A DNA stretch of 64,000 nt from Escherichia coli phage AZ21, in the sequence record LC788708.1. One strand, 5' to 3'. Shown here piece by piece: positions 3,210 to 33,810 of this stretch (position 1 is the stretch's first letter; every line of letters starts with the position of its first letter). Position numbers and translations under genes: made by a program. Under the pieces are notes generated by a model. The model ran no database searches. It was given only the letters and a program-made list of their open reading frames with translations, and was not told where the DNA came from.

Positions 3210-3239
3210 TTGCTAATCGCTACCAGATTTGCTATAATA
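3210..3239 (+). promoter_or_regulatory. sigma70 promoter (T5 early type)
   Basis: TTGCTA-18-TATAAT upstream of nrdB. Confidence 0.6.
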
Positions 3240-3269
3240 TTCCTGAAATAGTGAGAAAGAGGAAAATCA

Positions 3270-4415
3270 ATGACTACTTTACTAAACCTGAATTGGGATC
3301 ATACTAACGCTGACCTTTTCCTGGGAGATTCTCTCGGTATCGCAGATTATGTACGTGTAGCACATCCAGAACTAGAACGTCTGGCACTTCTGCAACGCTC
3401 TCAATTTTGGACTGAAACTGAAATCAGTCTGGAAGCAGATAAGAAACAATGGCCCAATCTCCCTCGTGAAATTCAGGAAATTACACTCCTGAACTTAGCA
3501 TGGCAAACTCAAACTGATTCCTTTATCAGTCGTGCCCCTGAAGCAGCTATTATGCCACTTGTAAGTCGTCCAGAATTGGAAGGTATGCTCAAACAGTGGA
3601 GCTATTTTGAAGACCTGCATAGTCGTGCTTATAGCAATATTATTCGTAATGTGCTGACTGATCCAGCAGAATTTATTGATTCTGTAACCAAAAACCAAGA
3701 AGCATTCGCGCGCATCGCTGATTCTGTTGAACTATTCGATGAACTGTACCAGTTAGGTCAGTATTTCATCGCAGTACGCGATCATCGTGGAGACAATACA
3801 TATCCAGAAACTGAGTTCCCTGAAGTTAAACGTGAAACTCAGGCTAAACTATTGGACGCTTACTTTGCGATCTATGGTCTGGAAGCAATGCAGTTTTACG
3901 CATCCTTTGCATGTACCTTTGCATTAGCAGAGAACGATATTCTGCAAGGTATTGCTAAAAATCTGCAATTAATCGCTAAAGATGAAGCTCTGCACACTCA
4001 GATGTCCAAAGCAATCATCCAGATTATGTTTCAGCAATTTGACAAAGATCTGGTAGATGAGGCAGTAGCTAAAGCACCAGCACAGCTCCTGAAAACTCTG
4101 AAAACTGAAATTGAATGGGGTCATTTCATTTTCAAAGGTCGTAGTCTGATTGGCTTGAATGCAGAACTTCTAGAAGAATATCTGTACTTTGTGGGGCGCA
4201 ATGCATTTATGCACATCGGTGTAGAATGGCCTAGTCACTTACCAGTAATCACCAAAAACCCTATTCCGTGGATCATGAACTGGTTGGATACTACTTCTCT
4301 ACAGCCTGCTCCGCAAGAAATCCAGATTGGTGCAGCTTACCGTGTAGGTCAGGTAACTGAGACCTCTACTGATACTCTGAAAGATCTGGGTAATGAATTT
4401 GGAGATTTCTTATGA
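3270..4415 (+). CDS. nrdB: ribonucleotide reductase small subunit
   Basis: 381 aa directly after nrdA with RBS; length and helical di-iron-type sequence consistent with NrdB. Confidence 0.8.
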   Translation: MTTLLNLNWDHTNADLFLGDSLGIADYVRVAHPELERLALLQRSQFWTETEISLEADKKQWPNLPREIQEITLLNLAWQTQTDSFISRAPEAAIMPLVSRPELEGMLKQWSYFEDLHSRAYSNIIRNVLTDPAEFIDSVTKNQEAFARIADSVELFDELYQLGQYFIAVRDHRGDNTYPETEFPEVKRETQAKLLDAYFAIYGLEAMQFYASFACTFALAENDILQGIAKNLQLIAKDEALHTQMSKAIIQIMFQQFDKDLVDEAVAKAPAQLLKTLKTEIEWGHFIFKGRSLIGLNAELLEEYLYFVGRNAFMHIGVEWPSHLPVITKNPIPWIMNWLDTTSLQPAPQEIQIGAAYRVGQVTETSTDTLKDLGNEFGDFL

Positions 4416-4945
4416 TTACAGCAATGTATGCAGTTGGGCCGAATGGGGAGTTCGGCCTCCGCGGTAAACTTCCATGGGGTTCCTTCAAAGAAGAACTAGA
4501 TGCTTTCTATTCTCAACTGGACGTATTAAATCCAGATAACATCATCATTGGTGCGGGTACTTATTTAGCTCTTCCATACGCCGTTAGAGAACGTATGATT
4601 AGGGCTTCTGACCTATTTATTCGTGTTGATCGTCCACTGCCAGACGATATTACGCATGATATTTACACTCCAATTTCTAAGATTGGGGATACATTACCTA
4701 CGTTTCTGAAAGATCAGCAGACAGTGGTTTTAGGTGGCGCAACATTATTGTACGAAATGTATATTCATGGACATATTGAGAGTGCTTTTGTATCCACAAT
4801 CTTTAGTAGTCAAAAACTAGAGGCAGATGTACATCTGGATAATATGATTCTAGATTACAACTATGAATCTACTCGTTTAGTTTACGCAACTGGCGCAAAC
4901 AGTGATAACAGCCTGCGATTTGTACAGGAATTGGTTACTTATTAA
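4412..4945 (+). CDS. frd: dihydrofolate reductase
   Basis: 177 aa; N-terminal GxxxxLPW and central GGATL pattern like FolA; start overlaps nrdB stop. Confidence 0.65.
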
Positions 4946-5799
4946 TGGATCAGTATATCGAAGTTGGAAAACGCATTCTATCAGATGGTCAGTGGGTAAC
5001 GAATCCTAGAACAGGGGTTCGTTGCCTCACTATTATTGATGCAGACTTTACTTTTAACGTAGGTGCAGGGGAATTTCCCCTTATTACTACTCGTAAGGCG
5101 TTTGCAAAACAAGCAATAATGGAAATGATTGGGTATCTACGTGGATATGACTCAGCAGCACAATTCCGTGCTATTGGTGTTAACACATGGAATGCTAATG
5201 CAAATGAAAACTCAGCTTGGCTAGACAATCCATACCGTAAAGGTGAGGATGATATGGGACGAGTCTATGGTGTTCAAGGACGTCAGTGGACTAATTCCGA
5301 TGGTCTTATGTTTGACCAACTAGCCAAGATTTATCATAATCTGAAAAGGGGCATTGATGATCGTGGGGAAATTCTAACCTTCTGGAATCCGGGAGAGTTC
5401 TCAAAGGGTTGCTTACGTCCATGTATGCACACTCATCAGTTCTCTATTTTGGGAGATACATTATACCTGAACTCTTTCCAGAGATCTAATGACTTCCTGT
5501 TAGGCCAAGTATTTAACATGGTTCAGTGCTATACGCTTCTAGCATTAATGGCTCAGATTACAGGCCTTAAACCAGGAATTGCACGCCAGAAGATTATCAA
5601 TCTTCATATCTATGAGGATCAGTATAATGTTTTGATGGAGCATAAGCAATTCGATCGTAAACCTTTTGCACCTCCTACTCTAGAAATTAATCCAAATATC
5701 CGAACTCTGGAGGATGTATTGACCTGGGTAAATAAGGATGATTTTACTGTTCGTGGTTACGAACACCACCCTGCTATTGCATACCCCTTTACGGTATAA
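4945..5799 (+). CDS. thyA: thymidylate synthase
   Basis: FWNPGEF and catalytic [10 protein letters not shown] motifs. Confidence 0.9.
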
Positions 5800-5802
5800 T
5801 AT

Positions 5803-6159: not shown

Positions 6160-6190
6160 AAATAGCCCTTCGGGGCTATTATATTTAAAT
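6160..6190 (+). terminator. terminator-like hairpin
   Basis: ATAGCCC-TTCG-GGGCTAT hairpin then AT-rich run. Confidence 0.55.
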
Positions 6191-6250
6191 TTCATTTGCT
6201 TATTTAGTGAAATTTAAATATAATATATTTTATAAATTGGAGGTACACAT

Positions 6251-6508
6251 ATGGGACTCTTTAGAAAGAAAGTTTATTTAACAGAAGAGCAAGAACACAA
6301 ACTTCTTACTCTATCAGAATACTATCATTTACCATATGATTATTTTGTAGATAGAGCAATAGAGGAATTCTTAGATAGAGAATTAGAGGCTATAAAACCT
6401 AAGCCTCCTGAGCCGTCTTTAGCATCAAAGGGTCACCAAAGAGAATCCCCAAGAGTTCCGCCAATGCCCCCAATTCCACCAAAAACTAGAGTTGTAACAG
6501 AGTTGTAA
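6251..6508 (+). CDS. hypothetical protein, proline-rich C-terminus
   Basis: RBS GGAGG then ATG. Confidence 0.4.
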   Translation: MGLFRKKVYLTEEQEHKLLTLSEYYHLPYDYFVDRAIEEFLDRELEAIKPKPPEPSLASKGHQRESPRVPPMPPIPPKTRVVTEL

Positions 6509-7004: not shown

Positions 7005-7021
7005 ATAAATTAAAAATTTTC

Positions 7022-7050
7022 TTGCTTAAAGCCCTCTAATTTAGTATAAT
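7022..7050 (+). promoter_or_regulatory. sigma70 promoter (T5 early type)
   Basis: TTGCTT-17-TATAAT. Confidence 0.6.
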
Positions 7051-7077
7051 ATTCGTATTGAAAGTGAGGAGGGATTT

Positions 7078-7356: not shown

Positions 7357-7372
7357 TTTTTAAAAAATTCAT

Positions 7373-7401
7373 TTGCTAAACGCTTCAAATTCTCGTATAA
7401 T
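7373..7401 (+). promoter_or_regulatory. sigma70 promoter (T5 early type)
   Basis: TTGCTA-17-TATAAT then CATAAATTGAT leader. Confidence 0.65.
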
Positions 7402-7439
7402 ATACTTCATAAATTGATAAACAAAAAGGAAAACAAATA

Positions 7440-8544: not shown

Positions 8545-9246
8545 ATGAAAGTAAAACCATTTGGTATGCTAGATATTGAATCTCTAGGAACTCCAGGAGA
8601 TTGTGGTACTACCCATATCGCAATGCCTTCATTCGCTTTTGTGGCTATGCATGGAATTGATAAAGACCCTGATCTAGTATTTGTTACTTTAGATGTACAA
8701 GATCAACTTAATTCTGGTGCCAAAGTTACAGCATCTACTCTAGCATTCTGGATGGATCAGGCTAAACATAGCCCGTCTGCTATCCACATTATGGAAGCTA
8801 TGAATGAGCGTAATCCAAAACTGGTTGCCTTCCAAAATGGTAAACATCATTGCACTAATAAACTTGGCTCTAACCATGCTGCCTTCTCTATGGCTCAAAA
8901 TATTATGGAGTTGGCTCTAGGCGAAAATGCTTTGTATTATGGCAATGGCCCAGAGTTTGATATGACTATCTACTCTGCAAACACTTTCCATGCTGGAACC
9001 AATGAAGAAATAGTTCCGTGGAAATTCTGGAACTTGGGTAATGTTAGATCTCTTCGTAATCTCTGGATGCAAACTGGCTATAGTTATAAAGCTCTAGAAA
9101 CCGAAGGTATTAGCTGGGCAATAGCTAAAATGGAGAAGATGGACACCATTCGTTATGGGATCTATCCGGTTAAGCACGACCCAGCATTCGATGCCCTAGT
9201 TGAGAGCTATTGTGTTGCAGCTATGATCGAAAAAATGAAAATTTGA
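8545..9246 (+). CDS. putative DEDDh-type 3'-5' exonuclease
   Basis: Exo I-like LDIESLG near N-terminus and Exo III-like YPVKHDPAFDA near C-terminus. Confidence 0.5.
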   Translation: MKVKPFGMLDIESLGTPGDCGTTHIAMPSFAFVAMHGIDKDPDLVFVTLDVQDQLNSGAKVTASTLAFWMDQAKHSPSAIHIMEAMNERNPKLVAFQNGKHHCTNKLGSNHAAFSMAQNIMELALGENALYYGNGPEFDMTIYSANTFHAGTNEEIVPWKFWNLGNVRSLRNLWMQTGYSYKALETEGISWAIAKMEKMDTIRYGIYPVKHDPAFDALVESYCVAAMIEKMKI

Positions 9247-9247
9247 T

Positions 9248-9276
9248 TTGCTTCCGGCTCCAAAATTCTGTATAAT
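9248..9276 (+). promoter_or_regulatory. sigma70 promoter (T5 early type)
   Basis: TTGCTT-17-TATAAT then CATAAATTTGAG leader. Confidence 0.65.
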
Positions 9277-9316
9277 ATATTCATAAATTTGAGAAAACAA
9301 TAAAAGGAAAACAAAT

Positions 9317-10191: not shown

Positions 10192-10574
10192 TAATTTAAA
10201 AGCTAGTAAATCGGTAGACGAAAGCCCAAGCATCTTACCTCGCAGCAGCGGTTGAAATACGAGGTTAAATAAGACCGCTGACCATACTATAAAGTATAAT
10301 CTATTGGAGATTATGTTTATTACACCAGCCTCTTAAGCTGACACGTAAGAACAAAGCGTCGTTGATATTACCGACACAACTTCAAAGATCAACATTTAAG
10401 TATGAAAGCTGAAAAGTTTAAAGAACTCAAACTTCTAAACTTCTAAAGCTAAAAGATGCAAAGTATTCGTTGATGATTCAAACCCTAGATCAAAGGTACA
10501 TGGCTCATAAGATATGGCCTGTGGCGCCTCTAGGCTGTTTATCGGTTTACTAGTTTCACAATTTAAAAATGTAT

Positions 10575-10603
10575 TTGCTAATTTACTAAGTTATCTGTAT
10601 AAT
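10575..10603 (+). promoter_or_regulatory. sigma70 promoter (T5 early type)
   Basis: TTGCTA-17-TATAAT then AAATTGATGAAACGAGG leader. Confidence 0.65.
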
Positions 10604-10633
10604 ATATTTTTAAATTGATGAAACGAGGCTATT

Positions 10634-10956: not shown

Positions 10957-11406
10957 ATGAAGGCAGCTTTGCTTTTAGTAGCTGCCCTTACCTTCAGCTT
11001 TAGTAGTCAGGCATCGCACGATGCAAAAGAAATAGATTGCATTGCTAAAAATATCTATTTCGAGAGTCGCGGTGAGGGCATAAAGGGAATGACGGCGGTT
11101 GCACATGTTACTAAAAACCGTGTAAACTCCGGTAAATTCCCAGATTCCTACTGTAAAGTAGTATATCAGTCTAACCAGTTCTCTTGGGTATCTAAGAGAC
11201 CAAAAGTTGATAAAACTGATGAGGCTTGGCAAACCGCTAAGAATTTAGCTAGAGTGATATACTACGTTGATTTACCACAAGATCCTACGTATGGAGCACT
11301 ATACTTCCATAGTGGTAAAGATAAACCTTACTGGACAAAGAAGTTTAAGAAAACAACTAAGATTAAGGGACATACGTTTTATAAACCTGTTGTCACTAAA
11401 ACTTAA
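10957..11406 (+). CDS. SleB-like cell wall hydrolase with signal peptide
   Basis: Signal peptide MKAALLLVAALTFSFSSQA; YFESRGEG...AVAHVTKNRV...QFSW pattern typical of the SleB hydrolase family. Confidence 0.55.
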   Translation: MKAALLLVAALTFSFSSQASHDAKEIDCIAKNIYFESRGEGIKGMTAVAHVTKNRVNSGKFPDSYCKVVYQSNQFSWVSKRPKVDKTDEAWQTAKNLARVIYYVDLPQDPTYGALYFHSGKDKPYWTKKFKKTTKIKGHTFYKPVVTKT

Positions 11407-11414
11407 AAATTTAC

Positions 11415-11443
11415 TTGCTTAGCTACTTAAATTTCTGTATAAT
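11415..11443 (+). promoter_or_regulatory. sigma70 promoter (T5 early type)
   Basis: TTGCTT-17-TATAAT. Confidence 0.65.
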
Positions 11444-11474
11444 ACTTTCATAAATTAATGAGAGGAAGCGAAAT

Positions 11475-11645: not shown

Positions 11646-12079
11646 TGGGTGAAAATATTCTAATGACCCTTCGTGGACTGCTTAGTCTAGCACGTACCCA
11701 CGGTGATAAGGAGAGGGCACTTAATCTTCAGACCATGATTGGTGATCTGCAACGTATTGATAAAGACATTGTTACTCGAACCGAGTTCGTAGCCTATCTG
11801 AAAGCTCAGATTAAGGCTCTAGAAAATGCAAAACAACGCGCTATTAAAGTTGGTACGGAAGTTCCTACTGATGTAGACTATGAGCAACTGCTTTATTCCA
11901 TGCTGCAAGAGTATCAGCCAAGTCAACTGACTGAAGTTCAGATTCGTGAGTATTTTGCAGAACTGGTTAAATTAAACCCAGGTATTACCAAAGCTCTATT
12001 AATGAAAACTATTAAGGCAGAATTTCCTGGACGTTATGACGGTAAAACAACTGCTTTGATTGCTAGTGAATTTTTCTAA
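11645..12079 (+). CDS. hypothetical protein
   Basis: 144 aa, coupled to upstream small ORF. Confidence 0.45.
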   Translation: MGENILMTLRGLLSLARTHGDKERALNLQTMIGDLQRIDKDIVTRTEFVAYLKAQIKALENAKQRAIKVGTEVPTDVDYEQLLYSMLQEYQPSQLTEVQIREYFAELVKLNPGITKALLMKTIKAEFPGRYDGKTTALIASEFF

Positions 12080-12087
12080 AAATTCAC

Positions 12088-12116
12088 TTGCTAAATGCTT
12101 ATAAATTCTATATAAT
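12088..12116 (+). promoter_or_regulatory. sigma70 promoter (T5 early type) ahead of tRNA cluster
   Basis: TTGCTA-17-TATAAT. Confidence 0.65.
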
Positions 12117-12193
12117 ATATTCATAAATTAGATGATAATTAGGCATCTAATTTATAAATAGTGGGGTGTGGAAATCACTTATGTAGTAACACT

Positions 12194-12265
12194 GCCGTCC
12201 TAGTATAATTGGTATTATCAAGCCGTAACTGGTGGAAGATGTAGGTTCGAATCCTACGGTCGGTA
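12194..12265 (+). tRNA. tRNA-like element, isotype undetermined
   Basis: Perfect T-arm GTAGG-TTCGAAT-CCTAC and D-loop GG, but acceptor and anticodon stems did not pair cleanly by eye. Confidence 0.35.
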
Positions 12266-12876: not shown

Positions 12877-13824
12877 ATGTTTAATACTAAAAATATGAAA
12901 GAATTGACTTCTGAGCAGAAAGTAATTCGTACTATTAAACGTTGGGGTATTGGTGCTGTAGTTGGTTTAGCAGGTTTAATCCTAGCTTTTAATTCGTATA
13001 CCATTGTTTCTGATGGTACGGTTAAAACCCAAACATTCCTGGGTAAAGTAGACCCTAATCCAGTATTACCTGGTTTCCATCTTGTAAACCCGTTTGCATC
13101 TTTCGATACTTTTAGTACGAAAGATATTTCTATGAAACTGGATAAACTTCAGGTTCCTAGCCAGGATAAGTTTAAGTCTACAGTTGACATTACCGTTATG
13201 TTGCAGTTTGATGGTGCTAAAGCTCCTATTAACCGTGTTAACGCAGGTACTCAGGATCAAGCTCTGAACAAGTACGTTGAAGAGAAGATGCTGTCTACGA
13301 TTCGTGAGTTTGGTAAGTCTGTACCAAAAGCACAAGATCTGTTCGACGCTAAGATTCAGGCTCAACTGCAAACCGCTATTCAGCAAGAAGTAGAAGAGTA
13401 TGCGCGTCCTTATGGCTACACCGTTAAGCAAGTATTCCTTCAGGATATTACTCTGCCACCGGTAATCATGGAACAGGTACAAAACACCAAAGTTCGTGAA
13501 GAACAAGTTAACGCTGCAAAAGCTGAACTAGCTCGTGTTGAACAAGAAGCACAGCAGAAAGTTAAGCAAGCTGAGGCTGATCGTTCTGCTCGTGAAAATA
13601 TGGCAGTAGCTAACGAACGTGACGCAGATGCTAAACTGTATGCGGCTAAGAAAGAAGCTGAAGCTAACACCGCTCTGCAGCGTACCATCACTCCAGAGAT
13701 GATTCGCTGGAAACAGCTGGAAGTTGATATGAAACGCGCTGAAAAATATCAGGGTGGCGTTCCTCAGACTGTTGTAGGTACTGGTTATGATGGCCAGATG
13801 ATTATGGATATGCGTAATAAGTAA
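12877..13824 (+). CDS. SPFH/band-7 (prohibitin/HflKC-like) membrane protein
   Basis: N-terminal TM helix, SPFH-like core, long Ala/Glu/Gln-rich coiled-coil tail. Confidence 0.55.
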   Translation: MFNTKNMKELTSEQKVIRTIKRWGIGAVVGLAGLILAFNSYTIVSDGTVKTQTFLGKVDPNPVLPGFHLVNPFASFDTFSTKDISMKLDKLQVPSQDKFKSTVDITVMLQFDGAKAPINRVNAGTQDQALNKYVEEKMLSTIREFGKSVPKAQDLFDAKIQAQLQTAIQQEVEEYARPYGYTVKQVFLQDITLPPVIMEQVQNTKVREEQVNAAKAELARVEQEAQQKVKQAEADRSARENMAVANERDADAKLYAAKKEAEANTALQRTITPEMIRWKQLEVDMKRAEKYQGGVPQTVVGTGYDGQMIMDMRNK

Positions 13825-13848
13825 TAGTTACACGTAATCTTCGAAACA

Positions 13849-13882
13849 AGCCCGCGTTTCCTCCGAGAGCGCGGGCTTTTCT
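13849..13882 (+). terminator. rho-independent terminator
   Basis: AGCCCGCG...CGCGGGCT hairpin followed by TTTTCTG. Confidence 0.7.
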
Positions 13883-14027
13883 GTATTTAAGGCAAAAGAA
13901 AAGCCCATAAGTTATTCAACTAAGGTCTTTAGTACTTAATTCTTTAGAATCATATACTATTATTGCAGCAACAACGTGCTACCACTAAATGCCCTACGAT
14001 TTTCCTCTAAAAAGTTAAAAAATTCGA

Positions 14028-14056
14028 TTGCTTGAATGCTAAATTCTCTGTATAAT
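14028..14056 (+). promoter_or_regulatory. sigma70 promoter (T5 early type)
   Basis: TTGCTT-17-TATAAT then TTATAAATTTGAGAGAGG leader. Confidence 0.65.
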
Positions 14057-14086
14057 ATATTTATAAATTTGAGAGAGGAATCAAAT

Positions 14087-14383
14087 ATGAAACGCATTGT
14101 ACTTGCATTGACTCTAGTATCTACTTCTGTATTTGCTGCTCCACAACAGGAACTTTGTCAAGTTCAAGTTTGTAATAAGCTAGAACGATTTACTTTGGAT
14201 ATTTGGTCACACATTAAAGATAATATGGGTGAGCAATGTTTTGATATTGTTCTGCCAAAAGAACAAGCTGTTCCTGGTGCTGTTCTCAGCTCAGAATCAC
14301 GTTGGTGGCAAGGTTCTTCTATCAATCCAACTAAGAAGTCAGTGACACGTATCAAACAAGTGTATCAGTGCAGTGTTCAGTAA
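14087..14383 (+). CDS. small secreted Cys-containing protein
   Basis: Signal peptide MKRIVLALTLVSTSVFA; track ORF trimmed to RBS-supported ATG. Confidence 0.45.
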   Translation: MKRIVLALTLVSTSVFAAPQQELCQVQVCNKLERFTLDIWSHIKDNMGEQCFDIVLPKEQAVPGAVLSSESRWWQGSSINPTKKSVTRIKQVYQCSVQ

Positions 14384-14391
14384 AATTTCAC

Positions 14392-14420
14392 TTGCTTAAT
14401 GCCGAAATTTTCTATATAAT
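14392..14420 (+). promoter_or_regulatory. sigma70 promoter (T5 early type)
   Basis: TTGCTT-17-TATAAT. Confidence 0.65.
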
Positions 14421-14451
14421 ATATTCTATAAATTATAGATAGGAGTCATAT

Positions 14452-14970
14452 ATGACTGTTGACGAGTTAAAACAACATCTTTTATCTAGGGGCTTTGATA
14501 GTGATAAGTATCACTGTTGGCTCTCTCCACATGGATGGTTAACAGTTCCACTGTATGATTTCTCTGGCATGTTACGTGGATATCAAACATATAACCCTAG
14601 TGCAGCTAAAGGTCATGGAAAATGTCCTTCTGAAGCTAAATATTTTACGCATTCTTCTACTCAATGTCTATGGGGTTTAGAAACTCTTACAGGTAATGAA
14701 GACCTAGTATTAGTTGCAGAATCTGTATTTAAAGCTGTGGCACTACACAACGCGGGATATCCCGCACTAGCAATGCTAGGATCTTCCCCTAGCAAAGCAC
14801 TGCTAAAGCAGCTAAAATTACAACCTTTTAAAGTAGTAGCCGTAGGCGATAATGATTCTGCTGGTGAGAAGTTTGCTAAAAAACTAAATGGGTTTACTTC
14901 CCTCATGGATTTAGATGAAATGAATACAGAAAACTTGAAAAATTTTCTTGCCATGAAGCTAAATTTCTAA
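14452..14970 (+). CDS. Toprim-domain protein (primase-like fold)
   Basis: Toprim-like conserved Glu (LVLVAESVF) and DxD (VAVGDNDSAG). Confidence 0.4.
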   Translation: MTVDELKQHLLSRGFDSDKYHCWLSPHGWLTVPLYDFSGMLRGYQTYNPSAAKGHGKCPSEAKYFTHSSTQCLWGLETLTGNEDLVLVAESVFKAVALHNAGYPALAMLGSSPSKALLKQLKLQPFKVVAVGDNDSAGEKFAKKLNGFTSLMDLDEMNTENLKNFLAMKLNF

Positions 14971-14976
14971 TATAAT
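14948..14976 (+). promoter_or_regulatory. sigma70 promoter inside the 3' end of the preceding CDS, ahead of tRNA pair
   Basis: TTGCCA-17-TATAAT then CATAAATTTGG; tRNA starts about 15 nt downstream. Confidence 0.55.
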
Positions 14977-14990
14977 ATATTCATAAATTT

Positions 14991-15084
14991 GGAAGATTAA
15001 CCCTAAAGGTAAGGGAGCTGTTTGCTAAACAGCCAGTAGCTGTGGAGACACGGTGTGCCAGTTCGAATCTGGCATCTTCCTCCA
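14991..15084 (+). tRNA. tRNA-Ser (anticodon GCU), long variable arm, CCA encoded
   Basis: Acceptor GGAAGAT/ATCTTCC, anticodon stem GCTGT/ACAGC with loop TTGCTAA, T-arm GCCAG-TTCGAAT-CTGGC. Confidence 0.7.
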
Positions 15085-16145: not shown

Positions 16146-16352
16146 ATGGCTAATCCTGAAATTACGGCACAACGCTTTATGCTGAAAGGAATTATTGCTG
16201 AAGCAGGCATGACAGAAGAAGTTGCAGATTTTCAAAAGCAATTCCTCAATATTCTCACTCAAGCCAAAGAGCTAGGAGAGAAAGAACATGGCGCGGCTAT
16301 TATGGCAATCACATTGGTTGGGCTTGATCTGGCTGAAGAATCAGGAGTTTAA
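16146..16352 (+). CDS. hypothetical protein
   Basis: RBS CTGGAG then ATG; track ORF trimmed. Confidence 0.35.
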   Translation: MANPEITAQRFMLKGIIAEAGMTEEVADFQKQFLNILTQAKELGEKEHGAAIMAITLVGLDLAEESGV

Positions 16353-16382
16353 CTCCTCCAAGCAGAAATTTTAAAAATGTAC

Positions 16383-16412
16383 TTGCTTTTTGCTTAAGAT
16401 TTCTGCTATAAT
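16383..16412 (+). promoter_or_regulatory. sigma70 promoter (T5 early type)
   Basis: TTGCTT-18-TATAAT then AAGTTGATGAGAGG leader. Confidence 0.6.
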
Positions 16413-16441
16413 AGTTATATAAGTTGATGAGAGGAATCAGA

Positions 16442-16717: not shown

Positions 16718-16753
16718 CTGATACAGCACTGAGCAAGTTCTTTAAAATTTGAC

Positions 16754-16782
16754 TTGCTCAGTGCCTTAAAACTTGATATAAT
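16754..16782 (+). promoter_or_regulatory. sigma70 promoter ahead of tRNA-Tyr
   Basis: TTGCTC-17-TATAAT. Confidence 0.6.
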
Positions 16783-16847
16783 ATTTATCTAATTTGGAAA
16801 CATATTTAAAAGTGTTTAAATGAGAATTTTTGAATACTTCTAAATAT

Positions 16848-16935
16848 GGGCGTTTATTCCGTAAGTGGTAGCGGAGGGGATTGTAAATCCCTGGTCATTG
16901 CGACTCGAGTGGTTCGACTCCATTAACGCCCACCA
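16848..16935 (+). tRNA. tRNA-Tyr (anticodon GUA), long variable arm, CCA encoded
   Basis: Acceptor GGGCGTT/AACGCCC, anticodon stem GGGGA/TCCCT with loop TTGTAAA, T-loop TTCGACT. Confidence 0.7.
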
Positions 16936-16952
16936 AATTAAAGGTAAAGGAT

Positions 16953-17144: not shown

Positions 17145-17218
17145 TTAGTTGGCAGAGTGGTTATGCACCTCCTTCATACGGAGCGACTACAGTGGTTCAA
17201 CTCCACTACTAACTACCA
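17143..17218 (+). tRNA. tRNA with CAU anticodon (Met or Ile2), CCA encoded
   Basis: Acceptor AGTTAGT/ACTAACT, anticodon loop TTCATAC, T-arm AGTGG-TTCAACT-CCACT. Confidence 0.6.
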
Positions 17219-18814: not shown

Positions 18815-18831
18815 ATTCTGAAATAATTCAT

Positions 18832-18860
18832 TTGCTAAACCTCTCTTTTCTTGCTATAAT
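18832..18860 (+). promoter_or_regulatory. sigma70 promoter (T5 early type)
   Basis: TTGCTA-17-TATAAT then ATAAATTGATGAGAGAGG leader. Confidence 0.65.
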
Positions 18861-18890
18861 ATGTTTATAAATTGATGAGAGAGGTTTGAA

Positions 18891-20862: not shown

Positions 20863-20956
20863 GATTGATACTAAATCAACTTACTAGCAAAAGCAAATAA
20901 TGACAAAGTCCAGCCTGCACTTTTGCGACTGGGCTATTTTTATAATAAAATTTTAG

Positions 20957-20985
20957 TTGCTTAGATGCCCAAACTTTTGTATAAT
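20957..20985 (+). promoter_or_regulatory. sigma70 promoter (T5 early type)
   Basis: TTGCTT-17-TATAAT. Confidence 0.65.
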
Positions 20986-21016
20986 ATGTTTATAGATTGA
21001 GGCAAGAGGATTAAAT

Positions 21017-23777: not shown

Positions 23778-23810
23778 AAGCCAGGGTTTAACGACCCTGG
23801 CTTTTCTTTT
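23778..23810 (+). terminator. rho-independent terminator
   Basis: AGCCAGGG...CCCTGGCT hairpin then TTTTCTTTT. Confidence 0.7.
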
Positions 23811-23873
23811 ATCTAAAATTCTTCTTGACAACGACAAAATTTTGTGCTCCAAAGAAAATCTTTAAAAACACAT

Positions 23874-23901
23874 TGTAATTTTCCTCCAAAATTAGTATAA
23901 T
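23874..23901 (+). promoter_or_regulatory. sigma70 promoter ahead of lysis cassette
   Basis: TTGTAA-16-TATAAT then RBS GAGGAGG. Confidence 0.5.
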
Positions 23902-23925
23902 GGTACTGGTTAGAGGAGGTTACAA

Positions 23926-24582
23926 TTGGAAAAGTTCTTACAATTATTAACGGTACTGCTCCAAGAAGCGAAAGATCCAGCATCGCTTCTTAAACGTCTG
24001 CTAACTATCTTAGTTGCTGTCATTATTTTCTTATTTGTTAGTAATACTAGCGAGGTGATGTCATTCTTAAAGACTTTCTCCACGTCTGCGGTTCTACAGG
24101 ATGTTCAAACTCAAAGGATAGATAACTTTCCTAATGTAGCTAGAGAAAAGAGCATGGTACTCTTTTCTCAAACGGGTGCGGATGCTGTTTTTGTAGTCAA
24201 GTATAAACCCGATGCCATTAATGATTATTCTAACATTATTGCATGGGAAAGCAATGCGCAATTAGATAGGGCTGACTTGGCCGATAAAGCAGTAAATAAA
24301 ACGTCTGAGCTATACAGACGTCACTTAGAGGGCTTTAACTACGCATCGGATTTAAGTGTAAGAGTAAATAAATATACGGGGTTAAATATACCTGCGTTTA
24401 AGAACGTTACTTTTAATTACATATACACTTGTCCATATTTCAATCTAAACAATATCTATGCTGGATATATTGGTATTGCTTGGAAAGATAATCCTGTAGA
24501 TGCAGCCGATTCTGAGAGATTTAAGGAATATTTAACAAAGCTCTGTTCTCCACAACAGAGATCTTTAGGTAGATCAATATGA
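23926..24582 (+). CDS. putative holin (TTG start)
   Basis: N-terminal TM segment, directly upstream of and overlapping endolysin. Confidence 0.5.
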   Translation: MEKFLQLLTVLLQEAKDPASLLKRLLTILVAVIIFLFVSNTSEVMSFLKTFSTSAVLQDVQTQRIDNFPNVAREKSMVLFSQTGADAVFVVKYKPDAINDYSNIIAWESNAQLDRADLADKAVNKTSELYRRHLEGFNYASDLSVRVNKYTGLNIPAFKNVTFNYIYTCPYFNLNNIYAGYIGIAWKDNPVDAADSERFKEYLTKLCSPQQRSLGRSI

Positions 24583-25069: not shown

Positions 25070-25486
25070 ATGTTTGCAGAACTATTCACTATGATGCTGC
25101 TAAGTATCTGGAAAATAAGTCTAGTAGTATTCGTTTTAATGATAGTCTTTACTATCCTTGCATTAACTACCCGAAATAGCTTATTAATAAAGGTTATTCA
25201 CGGACTAGAGTATATAATTATGGGTTCATTCGGCGTTTGTAAATGCAATTGCCATAGAGATACGAAATATTGTTGGTTATGGATGGAACTAGAGAATCCT
25301 ATATCCATAGCTTTGGCTGTTTCATTCGGCATGATTCTTATGGCCCTTACTCTAGCATTAATACCTTTGATGTTAGCTGGGGGAGTTACAGCGTATTTCA
25401 CCCTTTTCTCCCCGATACTTATGTACTCAATTTACCCGATAACTATGTATCTAGTTAGGAAAAGATTTATCCATGCAGTAGATTAA
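25070..25486 (+). CDS. hypothetical multi-pass membrane protein
   Basis: Several TM helices. Confidence 0.35.
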   Translation: MFAELFTMMLLSIWKISLVVFVLMIVFTILALTTRNSLLIKVIHGLEYIIMGSFGVCKCNCHRDTKYCWLWMELENPISIALAVSFGMILMALTLALIPLMLAGGVTAYFTLFSPILMYSIYPITMYLVRKRFIHAVD

Positions 25487-25499
25487 GATAAAAAAGTAG

Positions 25500-25528
25500 T
25501 TGACTTTTAGCCCTACTTATTATATAAT
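25500..25528 (+). promoter_or_regulatory. sigma70 promoter (T5 early type)
   Basis: TTGACT-17-TATAAT then CATAAATTAG. Confidence 0.6.
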
Positions 25529-25563
25529 ATATACATAAATTAGTTAAGAGAGGTATATATATT

Positions 25564-26495: not shown

Positions 26496-26778
26496 ATTAG
26501 TCTATCTATTAAAAGGTTCCACCTGTAACCCGTGTAAACTTTTCGAGCCAGTATTTGATAAAGTAGTCAGTGACTATAATTTGGAAATCCATAAAGAGAC
26601 TGATAATACAGAATTAATGCAGAAATTTGGTGTGCGCCAAGTTCCTGTAGTAGTTCTGGCGGATCGCTTACCTAATGGTCGAGTAGAAGCTAATCATATT
26701 CTGATTGGACGTCAGCTTCGTAAAGAAACTATGCACGAAGCTATTAAAAATTTCCTGGATGATAATCCAGAGGACTAA
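26488..26778 (+). CDS. thioredoxin/glutaredoxin-like protein
   Basis: CNPC redox motif near N-terminus; VRQVPVVV beta-strand. Confidence 0.5.
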   Translation: MSKLVYLLKGSTCNPCKLFEPVFDKVVSDYNLEIHKETDNTELMQKFGVRQVPVVVLADRLPNGRVEANHILIGRQLRKETMHEAIKNFLDDNPED

Positions 26779-26783
26779 TAAAC

Positions 26784-26816
26784 AAAGCCTGATTTTAGCT
26801 GATCAGGCTTTTATTT
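26784..26816 (+). terminator. rho-independent terminator
   Basis: AGCCTGAT...ATCAGGCT hairpin then TTTATTTT. Confidence 0.65.
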
Positions 26817-26819
26817 TAC

Positions 26820-26848
26820 TTGCTTTTTGCTAAAAATTTTGGTATAAT
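26820..26848 (+). promoter_or_regulatory. sigma70 promoter (T5 early type)
   Basis: TTGCTT-17-TATAAT. Confidence 0.65.
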
Positions 26849-26875
26849 ACTTATATAAATTGATTGGAGGATTAA

Positions 26876-28508: not shown

Positions 28509-28616
28509 GTATATAGCTGAGGGTATTATTAAACGAATCATACAAGCGATAGCAATACTTATAATCATTTGTATTGCTATTGGTGCGGGATTAGGCATTT
28601 TAATTAAAAGTTTTAT

Positions 28617-28645
28617 TTGCTAAAATGCTTAAGTTTCTGTATAAT
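28617..28645 (+). promoter_or_regulatory. sigma70 promoter (T5 early type)
   Basis: TTGCTA-17-TATAAT then ATAAATTGATGAGAAGG. Confidence 0.65.
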
Positions 28646-28675
28646 TACTTTATAAATTGATGAGAAGGAATCAAA

Positions 28676-29104: not shown

Positions 29105-29121
29105 GTAATTAAAAAATTCAG

Positions 29122-29150
29122 TTGCTTTAAGCCTTAAAATTCTGTATAAT
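29122..29150 (+). promoter_or_regulatory. sigma70 promoter (T5 early type)
   Basis: TTGCTT-17-TATAAT then CATAAATTAATGAGAGAGG. Confidence 0.65.
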
Positions 29151-29182
29151 AAGTTCATAAATTAATGAGAGAGGAAATTCTA

Positions 29183-31653: not shown

Positions 31654-32094
31654 ATGAGAGAAAAAGTAAATGAATTACTAATCGAGGAAGCTAACAACTT
31701 TCCAATAAATAGGTTTGTCAAATCTGATGGATCTATTAATAGAACTAAGATTAAGCAGCTACATCCCGACTTTCAACAAGAAGCACTAAACCTTATATTT
31801 ATCAAGAAAGCTGTTGCAGTTCATGGGGCTTTCTTTGGGTATGAGCGTGTAAATTACAAAACAATGCAACAGCAAGTCGAGATCTACTGTCCAGATCATG
31901 AAGGGTATTATTGGCAAACTGCTAGATCTCATTTAGAAGGGCATGGTTGTCGACTGTGTGCACACAAGGTTGTGCAGCGTGTCACGGATTATGGAACTTA
32001 TACCGTACCAGCATGTTATCATAAATTTGTAGTTGACGATAATCATATAGTTTGGTATAATAAGTTTTCAAAGTTAAGAATGGAGATAAAATAA
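31654..32094 (+). CDS. hypothetical Cys/His-rich protein
   Basis: CPDHEG...HGCRLCAH motif. Confidence 0.35.
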   Translation: MREKVNELLIEEANNFPINRFVKSDGSINRTKIKQLHPDFQQEALNLIFIKKAVAVHGAFFGYERVNYKTMQQQVEIYCPDHEGYYWQTARSHLEGHGCRLCAHKVVQRVTDYGTYTVPACYHKFVVDDNHIVWYNKFSKLRMEIK

Positions 32095-32279
32095 TGGAAA
32101 CTCTTTTTCTTTTAATGCTCGTAGGTTCTCTGTTACTAATACTAGCACTTCTACTAATCTGCAATATTCTTAACAACAAGAATCTAGAGCTAAAGTGTGA
32201 GAACCAAATCCTTAATCGTGAACTTAAACAATATAACATCGCAGCCCATAAACTGTTAGACAAACTGGAGAATAAATAA
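32094..32279 (+). CDS. small membrane protein
   Basis: Single TM helix. Confidence 0.3.
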   Translation: METLFLLMLVGSLLLILALLLICNILNNKNLELKCENQILNRELKQYNIAAHKLLDKLENK

Positions 32280-32884
32280 TGACTTTTAATACACAACAAT
32301 CTATTCAAGTAGTGCCAGATCATGAACTGAACACATGGGATTATAGCTTTAAAGATTTAACTGCTACTATACAATTTAAATCTATGAAGCTAACATTTGC
32401 ACACACTGATCTTAGAGCCTGTAAAGATCTTGAGGATAAGCTCGAAGATGCTCGTAAGATTTTTGGCAAGGCTCGCATCCCGGCTGATAATCTAATTAAC
32501 GCATTAATCGATGTAGGATACAAACTCGTGAAGACTGAGGTGAACCGCCCTAGTACTCCAGTGACTGTTAGAGATCCGTGGCAGCCAGGGACAATCTCAA
32601 TGCTAAATAAATCATCGGATATACACAATGTTCCATGCGGTGGTGTGGTAAGTAGTACGCAGTCATACAAGTTTGGTGAAGATTACGGCCCTTCTGTGCA
32701 GTTGAAACATACTCAAGAAGCTTTTGAATCTGATATGCGAAGCGTAGCACCTGTGGATGCTGGAGTTTCTAGGAGTTCTGTTTGTACTATTCATTTTAAT
32801 AATCCTAGTAAACATGGAAGTTTAGAGGATGCTATCCTTGAAGCGTTGGGAGCTGCTATTAATGAAGATAAAAGAGGTAGTTAA
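32279..32884 (+). CDS. hypothetical protein
   Basis: 201 aa. Confidence 0.4.
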   Translation: MTFNTQQSIQVVPDHELNTWDYSFKDLTATIQFKSMKLTFAHTDLRACKDLEDKLEDARKIFGKARIPADNLINALIDVGYKLVKTEVNRPSTPVTVRDPWQPGTISMLNKSSDIHNVPCGGVVSSTQSYKFGEDYGPSVQLKHTQEAFESDMRSVAPVDAGVSRSSVCTIHFNNPSKHGSLEDAILEALGAAINEDKRGS

Positions 32885-33774
32885 TGGGATTTTATAGTAA
32901 TAGAAAACCAAAAGGTGTAACTGGTAAATTCGCAGTTGAAGAAAGACCTTTTCCACCGGTCGATGTAGAGAAACTACGTGAACTTCTAGAAATGCTAGAA
33001 GGTTGCCATGAACGTTGTTATTCTGAACTCTCTTTAAATGAGAAACGTGTTGTTGAGATGTTCTGTATTCGTTCAGCTAGAACAGCTAAAGGTACTTCTC
33101 CAAAAGATGAAGTAAAAGAGTACAGAGTTCTAGTGATGCATGCTTGGGCACAACGTTTTGCAGTTCATTCGCTTCAGGAATGGTTTAATCTTCCAGCCTA
33201 TAAAGATTTTCATGTTTACGAAGATGAGGTTATGAATTATAATGAGTTGTATGGTTTGTCCTTCAAAAAGACAGGCTCACCGATGCATGATGCACTCAAT
33301 TCATTCCCTGATCATTACCTTCCAGTTCGTGAATATAGAGATCGTGAAGGAAATAAACCCTGCTTCACTATTTGGAATAAGTCTAAGACGATATCTGATC
33401 TAGATAATTATTGGTTTCGCACAAAAGAAGGATTCCTAGGAACAGAACCTTTACCTAAGGATCTCAAACCTATCCTTCCGCCTGCGAAACCTAAACATGA
33501 AGTAACGATTGCTATTAATAGAATAATTCTAGGAGCAGATGATCTTACTAAACAAATCGCCGCAGTTATCGCAGTTCTGTTTGACGGTACAAATTCTTCT
33601 GCACGTTATGAGAAGCTAACGGATAACAAATTGCAGATACCTAACGAGTTGTATGAGAGTTCGTGCAAGATCTATGATAACTTTAGTAAAGTAGATTACC
33701 CCGTGAGATCCATTAAAGAACTCATGGAGTATGCGGAGATGGGGATGAAAGGAAATCTCATGTTCGATGAATAA
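32884..33774 (+). CDS. hypothetical protein
   Basis: 296 aa; last early-type gene before repeat region. Confidence 0.45.
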   Translation: MGFYSNRKPKGVTGKFAVEERPFPPVDVEKLRELLEMLEGCHERCYSELSLNEKRVVEMFCIRSARTAKGTSPKDEVKEYRVLVMHAWAQRFAVHSLQEWFNLPAYKDFHVYEDEVMNYNELYGLSFKKTGSPMHDALNSFPDHYLPVREYRDREGNKPCFTIWNKSKTISDLDNYWFRTKEGFLGTEPLPKDLKPILPPAKPKHEVTIAINRIILGADDLTKQIAAVIAVLFDGTNSSARYEKLTDNKLQIPNELYESSCKIYDNFSKVDYPVRSIKELMEYAEMGMKGNLMFDE

Positions 33775-33781
33775 ACTCTAC

Positions 33782-33810
33782 TTGACGTTATGATTTCTGC
33801 ATGTTATAAT
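33782..33810 (+). promoter_or_regulatory. sigma70 promoter pointing into the gene-free repeat region
   Basis: TTGACG-17-TATAAT; no convincing ORF downstream. Confidence 0.5.

What the first reader, a model, noticed from the sequence alone, without database searches (positions are those of the whole stretch)
3210..33810. About 20 near-identical early promoters with a conserved transcribed leader
Each has an AT-rich upstream tract, TTGCT(T/A), a 17 bp spacer, TATAAT, then a conserved CATAAATTGATGAGAGG-like start region and RBS. The conserved downstream box goes beyond what sigma70 alone needs and may be a downstream promoter element or a shared translation-initiation/RNA stability signal.
Basis: partly seen in the sequence, partly recalled or inferred. 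Interest (0 to 1): 0.4.

Follow-up and report, generated by a model that had tools for sequence, protein, structure and literature searches.

The report
T5-type early promoters with conserved start box
These are the well-known, very strong early promoters of a T5-like coliphage, whose conserved A/T-rich start region (ATAAATT) followed by a ribosome-binding site was described for phage T5 in the 1980s, so the finding is real but ordinary.

Summary
The window is a Tequintavirus (T5-like) genome, 99.99% identical to E. coli phage AZ23. Between 3210 and 33810 there are 20 plus-strand sites of the form A-tract / TTGCTW / 17 bp / TATAAT. The pattern gives 20 hits against 2.4 expected. In 16 of the 20, an ATAAATT-like box lies 6-7 nt after the -10 (13 exact).

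Eighteen window promoters map base-for-base onto 'promoter' features of the T5 reference genome, including the named P-H207, P-D/E33, P16-17, P15a/b/c, P14a and P-F30. By homology with T5 P-N25, the A of ATAAATT is +1.

The 'box' has two parts:
- An initial transcribed sequence (+1 to +7). It is fixed relative to the -10 and is kept even in promoters that drive tRNA or stable-RNA genes.
- A purine-rich Shine-Dalgarno (GAGAGG). It is present only before protein genes and lies at variable distance.

Published work on P-N25 shows that this downstream region controls promoter escape. The same consensus (TTGCTw, TATAATA, -43 AAAAATT, +1 TAAATT) is already published for the 93%-identical phage AKFV33. 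The motif recurs across Demerecviridae genera and is absent from the mapped late and pre-early T5 promoters.

Verdict: already known, low interest. One side observation: identical promoter-leader segments flank a nadR-pnuC cassette indel.

The parts
3195..3264 (+). Early promoter before nrdB (-35 3210 TTGCTA, -10 3233; putative +1 3245). A-tract overlaps terminator 3171-3192. No ATAAATT box.
   Evidence: Counterpart is T5 50061-50135; homology breaks at 3240/3245, where T5 carries hegH.
6181..6251 (+). Early promoter (-35 6196, -10 6219, +1 6232 ATAAATT, 7-nt discriminator); ATG at +20.
   Evidence: Partial match to T5 46937.
7007..7076 (+). Early promoter (-35 7022, -10 7045), box absent (ATTGAAA); SD GAGGAGGG, ATG at +22.
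   Evidence: Matches T5 promoter 46337-46411, 93/95 identical.
7358..7428 (+). Early promoter, orthologue of T5 P-H207 (-35 7373, +1 7409 ATAAATT); ATG at +32.
   Evidence: 94/95 identical to T5 P-H207.
9233..9302 (+). Early promoter (-35 9248, +1 9283 ATAAATT); ATG at +35.
   Evidence: Matches T5 44393-44467.
10560..10629 (+). Early promoter (-35 10575, +1 10610 TTAAATT, 6/7); ATG at +25.
   Evidence: Matches T5 43067-43141.
11400..11469 (+). Early promoter, orthologue of T5 P-D/E33 (-35 11415, +1 11450 ATAAATTAATGAGAGG); ATG at +26.
12073..12155 (+). Early promoter, orthologue of T5 P16-17 (-35 12088, +1 12123 ATAAATT). It drives the RNAX-like stable RNA and tRNA-Arg and has no RBS. The box forms the 5' arm of a 12-bp terminal hairpin (12123-12155).
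   Evidence: MFE -10.3 kcal/mol, z = -3.29
14013..14090 (+). Early promoter, orthologue of T5 P15a (-35 14028, +1 14063 ATAAATTTGAGAGAGG); ATG at +25. Positions 14041-14090 are the junction of the nadR-pnuC indel relative to AZ23.
14377..14447 (+). Early promoter (-35 14392, +1 14428 ATAAATT, 7-nt discriminator) before the T5.076 orthologue. No separate counterpart in T5.
14933..15002 (+). Early promoter, orthologue of T5 P15b (-35 14948 TTGCCA, +1 14983 ATAAATT). It drives tRNA-Ser and tRNA-Met and has no RBS.
16368..16438 (+). Early promoter, orthologue of T5 P15c (-35 16383, 18-bp spacer, +1 16419 ATAAGTT); ATG at +24.
16739..16808 (+). Early promoter, orthologue of T5 P14a (-35 16754 TTGCTC, +1 16789 CTAATTT, 5/7). 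It drives tRNA-Tyr and has no RBS.
18817..18886 (+). Early promoter (-35 18832, +1 18867 ATAAATTGATGAGAGAGG); ATG at +25.
   Evidence: Matches T5 26722-26796.
20942..21011 (+). Early promoter (-35 20957, +1 20992 ATAGATT, 6/7); ATG at +26.
   Evidence: Matches T5 24443-24517.
25485..25554 (+). Early promoter (-35 25500 TTGACT, +1 25535 ATAAATT); ATG at +30.
   Evidence: Matches T5 19368-19442.
26805..26874 (+). Early promoter (-35 26820, +1 26855 ATAAATT); ATG at +22. Abuts the bidirectional terminator at 26784-26811.
   Evidence: Matches T5 18550-18624.
28602..28671 (+). Early promoter, orthologue of T5 P-F30 (-35 28617, +1 28652 ATAAATTGATGAGAAGG); ATG at +25.
29107..29176 (+). Early promoter (-35 29122, +1 29157 ATAAATTAATGAGAGAGG); ATG at +27. 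Best PWM score of the set (51 bits).
   Evidence: Matches T5 16245-16319.
33767..33859 (+).
   Evidence: The surrounding 277 bp have no T5 homologue.
46131..46200 (-). It is in the position of the T5 llp (lpp) promoter at 110349 but differs from it in sequence (discriminator AGATTC here, AGTATT in T5).
23858..23927 (+). Box-less promoter inside the range (TTGTAA-17-TATAAT GGTACT...) before the holin gene. Shows that the box is not universal.
   Evidence: Matches T5 20998-21071.
32018..32087 (+). Box-less promoter inside the range (TTGACG-17-TATAAT with TGn).
   Evidence: Matches T5 13212-13286.
63569..63638 (+). Orthologue of the T5 late promoter P-G25 (TTGATA-17-TATAAT ATTGTT ATTAAAGAGGAG). 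Lacks the ATATT discriminator and the ATAAATT box.

Best explanation
These are the host-RNA-polymerase (sigma70) early promoters of a T5-like phage, and each is a composite module. In order it contains:
- an A-rich UP-element-like tract (AAAAATT at about -45 to -39);
- a -35 hexamer TTGCTW and a 17-bp spacer;
- a perfect -10, TATAAT, followed by A at -6, and an A/T-rich discriminator (ATATTY);
- initiation at the A of ATAAATT.

The 'box' is two juxtaposed signals. ATAAATT (+1 to +7) is the initial transcribed sequence, the 'downstream sequence region' of the Bujard laboratory. Together with the -10 and the discriminator it forms a run of about 19 bp with almost no G/C, and it continues into a purine-rich non-template strand. 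Inferred from work on P-N25: this lets a polymerase that is bound extremely tightly melt, scrunch and escape quickly, so promoter clearance does not cap output. The following GAGAGG is simply the Shine-Dalgarno of the first gene, placed on a short unstructured A/U-rich leader (+19 to +35 to the start codon).

Shown here: the motif, its statistics, its orthology to annotated T5 promoters, its anchoring to the -10, and its conservation across the family. Inferred from literature on T5 P-N25, not from this window: the start site and the escape mechanism.
For: Identity of the genome: 99.99% identical to AZ23, a Tequintavirus.

Orthology: 18 window promoters coincide with T5 AY543070 'promoter' features, including the named P-H207, P-D/E33, P16-17, P15a-c, P14a and P-F30. 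A P-N25 70-mer recalled from memory matches the T5 feature 'promoter P-N 25' at 100%.

Start site: TATAATAGATTCAT is given as -12 to +2 of N25 (PMC7472727). The N25 ITS from +1 to +11 is described as 9 A/T and 2 G/C (PMC12464699). So +1 is the A of ATAAATT.

Anchoring: the box lies 6-7 nt from the -10 in every case but 19-35 nt from the start codon. It is retained at the three promoters that drive tRNA or RNAX genes, where GAGAGG is missing. The non-promoter ATAAATT copies on the plus strand inspected within 1-35 kb (7005, 12101, 32021) lie inside or beside promoters, not before internal genes.

Constraint: window-versus-T5 substitutions are 3/126 in the box. The other regions give 0/108 (-10), 4/108 (-35), 16/306 (spacer), 9/108 (discriminator) and 23/234 (+8 to +20).

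Family-wide: exact ATAAATT at +1 occurs in 8/14 core-defined promoters of Pectobacterium phage My1, 6/16 of Klebsiella phage Sugarland, 7/15 of Proteus phage PM135 and 2/10 (5/10 at 6/7 or better) of Vibrio phage VspSw_1.

Composition: G+C of -12 to +7 is 7.6%, against 39% for the genome. Purines at +1 to +20 are 70%, against 52%.

Function in T5: the antiDSR lowers full-length RNA to 1/10 and lengthens the escape half-life from 3.0 to about 45 min (PMC12464699; PMC5961368).

Prior description: the same consensus, including '+1 region (TAAATT)', is published for AKFV33 (PMC3326045).
Against: - No 5'-end data exist for this phage, and no genome-wide start-site map of T5 was found in the searchable library.
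- The functional data concern one promoter (N25) and a block substitution of +3 to +20, so they do not isolate ATAAATT from the purine-rich part.
- Two good family members (3210, 7022) and the holin promoter lack the box, so it is not obligatory.
- The constraint signal against T5 rests on small numbers: 3/126 against 48/648, roughly p = 0.04 by my own estimate.
- Many boxes are followed by a T-G step at +7/+8, a step that PMC5961368 associates with slower escape.
Confidence: 0.85

Rival explanations
1. The box is mainly an RNA-level signal. A common 5'-AUAAAUU... end and an A/U-rich unstructured leader would enhance ribosome loading (for example through protein S1) or set mRNA stability, rather than acting on RNA polymerase.
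For: All protein-coding leaders are short (19-35 nt) and A/U-rich. They are predicted to be essentially unstructured, with z-scores from -1.3 to +1.2 and no shared fold. The GAGAGG half is indeed an RBS. In RNAX the box forms a 5'-terminal hairpin, a classic stabiliser.
Against: The box is kept at the promoters of untranslated tRNA and RNAX transcripts. It is fixed relative to the -10 and variable relative to the start codon. The non-promoter copies inspected are not upstream of internal genes. The antiDSR defect in N25 is seen in vitro with purified polymerase.
Confidence: 0.15
2. The ATATT discriminator plus ATAAATT start region is a temporal-class signature. A phage factor bound to RNA polymerase (gpT5.026 or another early protein) would read it to shut off early promoters at the early-to-late switch.
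For: The box is absent from the mapped late promoters P-G25 (orthologue at window 63584) and P-J5, and from the pre-early P-H22. It is present in the early P31A, P31B and llp promoters. PMC7472727 reports that gpT5.026 lowers polymerase binding to the -5/+2 non-template segment about 8-fold, that all known early promoters share ATATT, and that a 026 mutant over-produces early transcripts.
Against: The reported effect of gpT5.026 is moderate and the mutant is viable. The authors implicate the discriminator, not +1 to +7. Early promoters without the box exist (3210, 7022). Only two late and one or two pre-early promoters are available for the contrast.
Confidence: 0.2
3. The similarity is maintained mainly by recombination or copying of a mobile promoter-leader cassette (concerted evolution, like the PeSL cassettes of T4-type phages) rather than by selection on each base.
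For: In AZ23 two promoters share an identical segment of about 43-50 bp from the -10 to the ATG, flanking nadR-pnuC, and the window is the exact recombinant. T5 joins the same leader to a third gene. Four of 15 window/T5 homology breaks fall within a promoter module. Several promoters abut terminators, the PeSL-like arrangement.
Against: The copies are only 59% identical overall. Spacers and upstream flanks are randomised while the box stays fixed, which is the signature of selection. The box persists in genera whose flanks share no detectable similarity. The breakpoint enrichment is not significant: about 1.8 expected, roughly p = 0.09 by my own estimate.
Confidence: 0.1
4. TAAATT at +2 to +7 acts as a -10-like element that re-engages sigma70 region 2 and causes a promoter-proximal pause.
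For: Sequence only. TAAATT matches TATAAT at 4 of 6 positions, including the critical A2 and T6 (my reading of the sequences).
Against: No pause has been reported at native N25 in the papers read. A 4/6 match is weak. There is no antiterminator context.
Confidence: 0.04

Closest known systems
Bacteriophage T5 early promoters (P-N25, P-H207, P-D/E33, P15a-c and others; Gentz & Bujard 1985) and their 'downstream sequence region' or initial transcribed sequence (Kammerer et al. 1986; Hsu laboratory)
   Same: Direct orthologues. 18 of the window's promoters coincide with annotated T5 promoters; P-H207 is 94/95 identical. The architecture is identical: -43 A-tract, TTGCTW, 17 bp, TATAAT(A), AT-rich discriminator, +1 ATAAATT, then a purine-rich region.
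   Different: Only gene content around some promoters differs: no hegH after the nrdB promoter, an extra promoter at 14392, and far fewer tRNA genes after P14a. Nothing differs in kind.
Promoter consensus published for T5-like phage AKFV33 (Niu et al. 2012, PMC3326045)
   Same: The paper lists 32 promoters with TTGCTw, a 17-18 bp spacer, TATAATA, AAAAATT at the -43 region and TAAATT at the +1 region.
   Different: That paper treats the +1 region only as 'AT-richness'. It does not separate the ITS from the RBS and does not note that the box is absent from late promoters.
UP-element promoters such as E. coli rrnB P1 (my own knowledge)
   Same: An A/T-rich tract upstream of the -35 in the position of the proximal UP subsite. 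AAAA(A)TT is conserved in 16-19 of 20 copies at -45 to -39.
   Different: rRNA promoters have G/C-rich discriminators and short-lived open complexes. The T5 type has an A/T-rich discriminator and, for N25, a 180-min open-complex half-life, with escape as the limiting step.
PeSL (promoter-early stem-loop) cassettes of T4-type phages (PMC2839356, PMC4122927)
   Same: A repeated composite of a terminator hairpin and an early promoter between small early genes. One indel in this lineage has its junction exactly within a shared promoter-leader segment.
   Different: The motif and the phage family are different. A role in shuffling is only suggested here: one exact case, and breakpoint enrichment that is not significant.

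Membership tests
T5-type sigma70 early promoter | -35 TTGCT(A/T), 17 (rarely 18) bp spacer, -10 TATAAT | tested here: met
   20 hits against 2.4 expected. T, T and G of the -35 and all six -10 bases are invariant in 20/20. One copy has an 18-bp spacer.
T5-type sigma70 early promoter | A-rich block around -43 (AAAAATT) | tested here: met
   Positions -45 to -39 are A16 A19 A18 A19 A11 T19 T16 out of 20, at 0.4-1.4 bits each. 33782 and 26820 are weak.
T5-type sigma70 early promoter | A/T-rich discriminator (ATATT) and conserved +1 region (A)TAAATT | tested here: met
   A at -6 in 19/20. ATAAATT is exact in 13/20 and at 6/7 or better in 16/20, always 6-7 nt after the -10. Not met by 3210, 7022 and 33782.
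T5-type sigma70 early promoter | Positional orthology to T5 promoters mapped by function or in vitro transcription | tested here: met
   18 window promoters map onto AY543070 promoter features, 8 of them named ones.
T5-type sigma70 early promoter | Transcription actually starts at the A of ATAAATT, with early timing, by host E-sigma70 | not testable with these tools
   Inferred from N25 numbering in PMC7472727 and PMC12464699. No start-site map for T5-like phages was found.
Downstream sequence region / ITS element controlling promoter escape | Sequence within +1 to +20 that changes productive against abortive output without changing polymerase binding | not testable with these tools
   Shown for T5 N25 against N25anti in the literature. 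Here there is only indirect support: anchoring to the -10, retention at RNA-gene promoters, low substitution, and 7.6% G+C over -12 to +7.
Extended -10 (TGn) promoter | TG at -15/-14 | tested here: not met
   Among the 20 sites in the range, TGn is present only at 3210, 18832 and 33782; the box-less 32033 also has it. The frequent 'ctgTATAAT' places TG one base too close.
Structured RNA leader or known RNA family | Conserved secondary structure, or a match to an Rfam model | tested here: not met
   Rfam at gathering threshold returns only tRNAs. The mRNA leaders have no significant or shared fold.
Dispersed DNA repeat / mobile cassette (PeSL-like) | Copies similar along their whole length, and indel junctions at the element | tested here: inconclusive
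   Copies are 59% identical, with conservation confined to functional blocks. But there is one exact indel junction in a shared 43-50 bp promoter-leader, and 4 of 15 homology breaks lie at promoters (not significant).

The most novel reading that the evidence does not exclude
The early-class signature (ATATT discriminator plus ATAAATT at +1 to +7) is not only an escape-optimised start region. It would also be the cis-element through which a T5-encoded polymerase-binding factor, such as gpT5.026, selectively switches off early promoters. This would explain why the mapped late and pre-early promoters lack it. A second non-excluded reading is that the identical promoter-leader segments serve as recombination junctions for gain and loss of early-gene cassettes, like PeSL cassettes.
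Probability: 0.2. Interest if true: 0.45.

Novelty: already known. Interest (0 to 1): 0.12.

Why it matters
T5 early promoters are among the strongest known sigma70 promoters, and P-N25 remains a standard model for promoter escape. This window adds no new kind of element. It only shows that the motif is conserved in one more Tequintavirus.

Three points go modestly beyond the genome papers read here:
- The 'box' separates cleanly into a promoter-anchored ITS and a gene-anchored RBS.
- The ITS motif persists across five Demerecviridae genera infecting different hosts.
- It is missing from the mapped late and pre-early promoters.

These make the T5 temporal switch somewhat more testable.

Tried and rejected
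- Generic sigma70 consensus scan. It finds 47 and 62 sites, against 54.6 and 65.6 in shuffles. So a generic match carries no information; only the specific T5-type pattern is enriched.
- Chance or plain A/T-richness. Rejected: ATAAATT as a word is not over-represented (22 on the plus strand, 16 expected). But 13 copies sit exactly 6-7 nt after a family -10, while the equally A/T-rich discriminators vary.
- Recent duplication or dispersed repeat as the whole explanation. Rejected: copies are 59% identical and the spacers are randomised.
- Common RNA structure, riboswitch or known RNA family in the leader. Nothing found. A small hairpin that presents the SD in its loop (for example 14067-14086 and 28657-28674) occurs in a few leaders only and is no better than shuffles.
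- Extended -10 promoters. Not met.
- Reading the primary papers of 1985-86 (PMC214212, PMC1167251, PMC1167252). They are not held in the library, so their content is cited through later papers.
- Search for genome-wide T5 start-site data. None found.
- Test of whether window/T5 homology breaks cluster at promoters. Four of 15, against about 1.8 expected; suggestive but not significant.

Full report
**What the window is.** Window 3000-23000 matches 551 phage records. The best is E. coli phage AZ23 (LC788707; Demerecviridae, Markadamsvirinae, Tequintavirus) at 100% in two pieces. T5-like phages of Escherichia and Salmonella follow at 93-95%. Over the whole window the identity to AZ23 is 99.99%, apart from one 1,842-bp indel. 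The window's plus strand is the minus strand of the T5 reference AY543070. Window 1 to about 33,900 is the T5 early region, running from nrdA down to T5.018. After that the window enters the terminal-repeat/pre-early block: window 33,977-35,311 corresponds to T5 10,659-9,317.

**Checking the observation.** The pattern TTGCTW-N17-TATAAT with at most 1 mismatch occurs 20 times, against 2.40 +/- 1.60 expected (maximum 7 in 100 shuffles). Allowing an 18-bp spacer or TTGAC adds 16383, 25500 and 33782, which gives exactly 20 sites between 3210 and 33810.

- A PWM built only from the upstream tract to the -10 scores these sites at 34-51 bits. The best of 20 shuffles scored 15.3.
- ATAAATT lies 6 nt (sometimes 7) after the -10. 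It is exact in 13 of 20, at 6/7 in 3 and at 5/7 in 2. It is absent at 3210 and 7022.
- Information content is about 7.3 bits for +1 to +7, 8.6 for the -35 and 9.6 for the -10. There is also an A-tract (AAAA(A)TT, -45 to -39), A at -6 in 19/20, and a weaker purine-rich block from +8 to +16.
- A generic sigma70 scan is not enriched over shuffles (47 against 54.6; 62 against 65.6). The signal therefore belongs to this specific family.
- 'Near-identical' is too strong. Pairwise identity over -45 to +20 averages 59% (38-78%), and spacers and flanks are essentially randomised.

**What the sites are.** The T5 reference annotates 75-nt 'promoter' features throughout its early region. Alignment and anchored matching place 18 window promoters on those features:

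| Window | T5 feature |
|---|---|
| 7022 | 46337 |
| 7373 | P-H207 (94/95 identical) |
| 9248 | 44393 |
| 10575 | 43067 |
| 11415 | P-D/E33 |
| 12088 | P16-17 |
| 14028 | P15a |
| 14948 | P15b |
| 16383 | P15c |
| 16754 | P14a |
| 18832 | 26722 |
| 20957 | 24443 |
| 23873 | 20998 |
| 25500 | 19368 |
| 26820 | 18550 |
| 28617 | P-F30 |
| 29122 | 16245 |
| 32033 | 13212 |

- A 70-nt P-N25 sequence that I recalled from memory matched T5 at 100%, on the feature 'promoter P-N 25'.
- PMC7472727 gives TATAATAGATTCAT as -12 to +2 of N25. PMC12464699 describes +1 to +11 of N25 as 9 A/T plus 2 G/C. Both fix +1 at the A of ATAAATT.
- The same consensus is already in print for phage AKFV33, which is 93% identical to the window: 'TTGCTw ... 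TATAATA ... [quoted passage not shown]

- The 5' part sits at a fixed distance from the -10, but 19-35 nt from the start codon.
- It is retained at the three promoters that lead into untranslated genes, and there the GAGAGG part is missing. These are 12088 (RNAX-like RNA and tRNA-Arg), 14948 (tRNA-Ser and tRNA-Met) and 16754 (tRNA-Tyr).
- The non-promoter plus-strand copies of ATAAATT inspected within 1-35 kb (7005, 12101, 32021) lie in or beside promoters, not before internal genes.
- So ATAAATT belongs to the promoter as its initial transcribed sequence, and GAGAGG is the first gene's Shine-Dalgarno.
- From -12 to +7 the DNA is 7.6% G+C (genome 39%). The non-template strand from +1 to +20 is 70% purine (genome strand 52%).
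- The mRNA leaders have no significant or shared fold, and Rfam finds only tRNAs.

**Evidence of constraint.** Between the window and T5, for 18 orthologous pairs:

| Region | Substitutions |
|---|---|
| -10 | 0/108 |
| Box, +1 to +7 | 3/126 |
| A-tract | 6/180 |
| -35 | 4/108 |
| Spacer | 16/306 |
| Discriminator | 9/108 |
| +8 to +20 | 23/234 |

The numbers are small, but the box behaves like the core elements. I also defined promoters by core elements only (TTG[AC]NN-17/18-TATAAT). On that definition, exact ATAAATT at the start position occurs as follows:

| Phage | Exact ATAAATT |
|---|---|
| Window | 14/23 |
| T5 (two regions) | 14/29 and 3/6 |
| Pectobacterium phage My1 | 8/14 |
| Klebsiella phage Sugarland | 6/16 |
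| Proteus phage PM135 | 7/15 |
| Vibrio phage VspSw_1 | 2/10 (5/10 at 6/7 or better) |

The element is therefore a family-wide feature of Demerecviridae early promoters.

**Mechanism.** This step rests on literature, not on this window.

- N25 forms open complexes very fast and holds them for about 180 min, so escape limits output.
- Replacing +3 to +20 with the 'anti' sequence gives 1/10 of the full-length RNA, more and longer abortive products, and an escape half-life of about 45 min instead of 3 min.
[quoted passage not shown] PMC5961368 restates the Kammerer 1986 result.
- The most likely role of the conserved box is therefore to keep promoter clearance fast at promoters that bind polymerase extremely tightly. 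The RBS then follows immediately on an open leader.
- What is not shown: that ATAAATT itself, rather than the purine-rich +8 to +20, carries the effect; and where transcripts start in this phage.

**Class specificity.** In T5 the late promoters P-G25 and P-J5 and the pre-early P-H22 lack both ATATT and ATAAATT. The window orthologue of P-G25 is at 63584. The early promoters P31A and P31B and the llp promoter have them; window 46185 on the minus strand, in the position of the llp promoter, also has the box. PMC7472727 notes the ATATT discriminator as the early-class mark and links it to gpT5.026. This leaves room for a regulatory reading of the start region, which I rate at about 0.2.

**Side observation.** AZ23 carries nadR-pnuC between two promoters. 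These share an identical segment of about 43-50 bp, running from the -10 through ATAAATTTGAGAGAGGAATCAAAT to the ATG.

- The window is the exact recombinant: the upstream half of copy 1 joined to the gene after copy 2.
- T5 joins the same P15a leader directly to T5.076, which in the window has its own promoter at 14392.
- Other window/T5 homology breaks lie at 3240/3245, 14382, 16805 and 32080/32090, all within promoter modules. But 4 of 15 against about 1.8 expected is not significant.
- This resembles the PeSL cassettes of T4-type phages and deserves a proper test on the several hundred available genomes.

**Verdict.** The element is a textbook feature of T5 and its relatives, so it is already known and of low interest.

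Noticed in passing
window 14041-14090 (AZ23 LC788707 46112-46161 and 47954-48003): The only large difference from AZ23 is a 1,842-bp nadR-pnuC cassette that the window lacks. In AZ23 it is flanked by two promoters that share an identical segment of about 43-50 bp from the -10 to the ATG, and the window is the exact recombinant. T5 joins the same P15a leader to a third gene (T5.076). Promoter-leader modules may act as recombination junctions, as PeSL cassettes do.
   Followed up: partly
window 12123-12155 and 12194-12265: The transcript from promoter 12088 (homologue of T5 'RNAX', a stable RNA of unknown function) begins with a 12-bp hairpin whose 5' arm is the ATAAATT box (MFE -10.3 kcal/mol, z = -3.3). 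T5 keeps the stem through compensatory changes (GATG/CATC against GAGA/TCTC). Rfam also finds a tRNA-like element at 12194-12265 (35.5 bits) that ARAGORN does not call.
   Followed up: partly
window 33782-33859: An orphan strong-looking promoter (TTGACG-17-TGnTATAAT) with no ORF downstream, followed by a G+C-rich hairpin (33842-33859). It lies in a 277-bp segment with no T5 homologue, exactly at the border between the early region and the terminal-repeat/pre-early block. It points towards convergently transcribed pre-early genes.
   Followed up: partly
window 16805-17393: The tRNA region is much reduced: 6 tRNA genes here against about 24 in T5. The homology break lies at +16 of the P14a-type promoter (16754), where T5 carries about 7.5 kb more of tRNA, small ORF and homing-endonuclease genes.
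   Followed up: partly
window 3240-3245: T5 has the HNH homing-endonuclease gene hegH inserted precisely between the -10 of the nrdB promoter and nrdB. The window lacks it, and its homology to T5 breaks right at the putative start site.
   Followed up: partly
window 23873-23927, 32033-32087, 63584-63638: Promoters orthologous to annotated T5 promoters that lack the ATATT/ATAAATT signature: the holin promoter, T5 13212, and the late P-G25. The signature therefore marks a subset (most early promoters), not all phage promoters.
   Followed up: yes
window 3171-3192, 13848-13878, 23778-23803, 26784-26811: Terminator hairpins, some bidirectional, lie upstream of promoters. At 3171-3192 and 26784-26811 the terminator's T-run merges into the promoter's A/T tract; the other two lie about 70-150 bp upstream of the next -35. 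The abutting pairs are compact terminator-promoter composites.
   Followed up: no
window 16848-16935 and 17143-17218: tRNA-Tyr and a second tRNA-Met called by ARAGORN do not reach the Rfam tRNA gathering score.
   Followed up: no
window 14067-14086, 28657-28674, 16423-16440: In a few leaders, AUUUGA/UCAAAU-type arms could present the GAGAGG Shine-Dalgarno in a hairpin loop. The energies are no better than shuffles and the feature is not general.
   Followed up: yes
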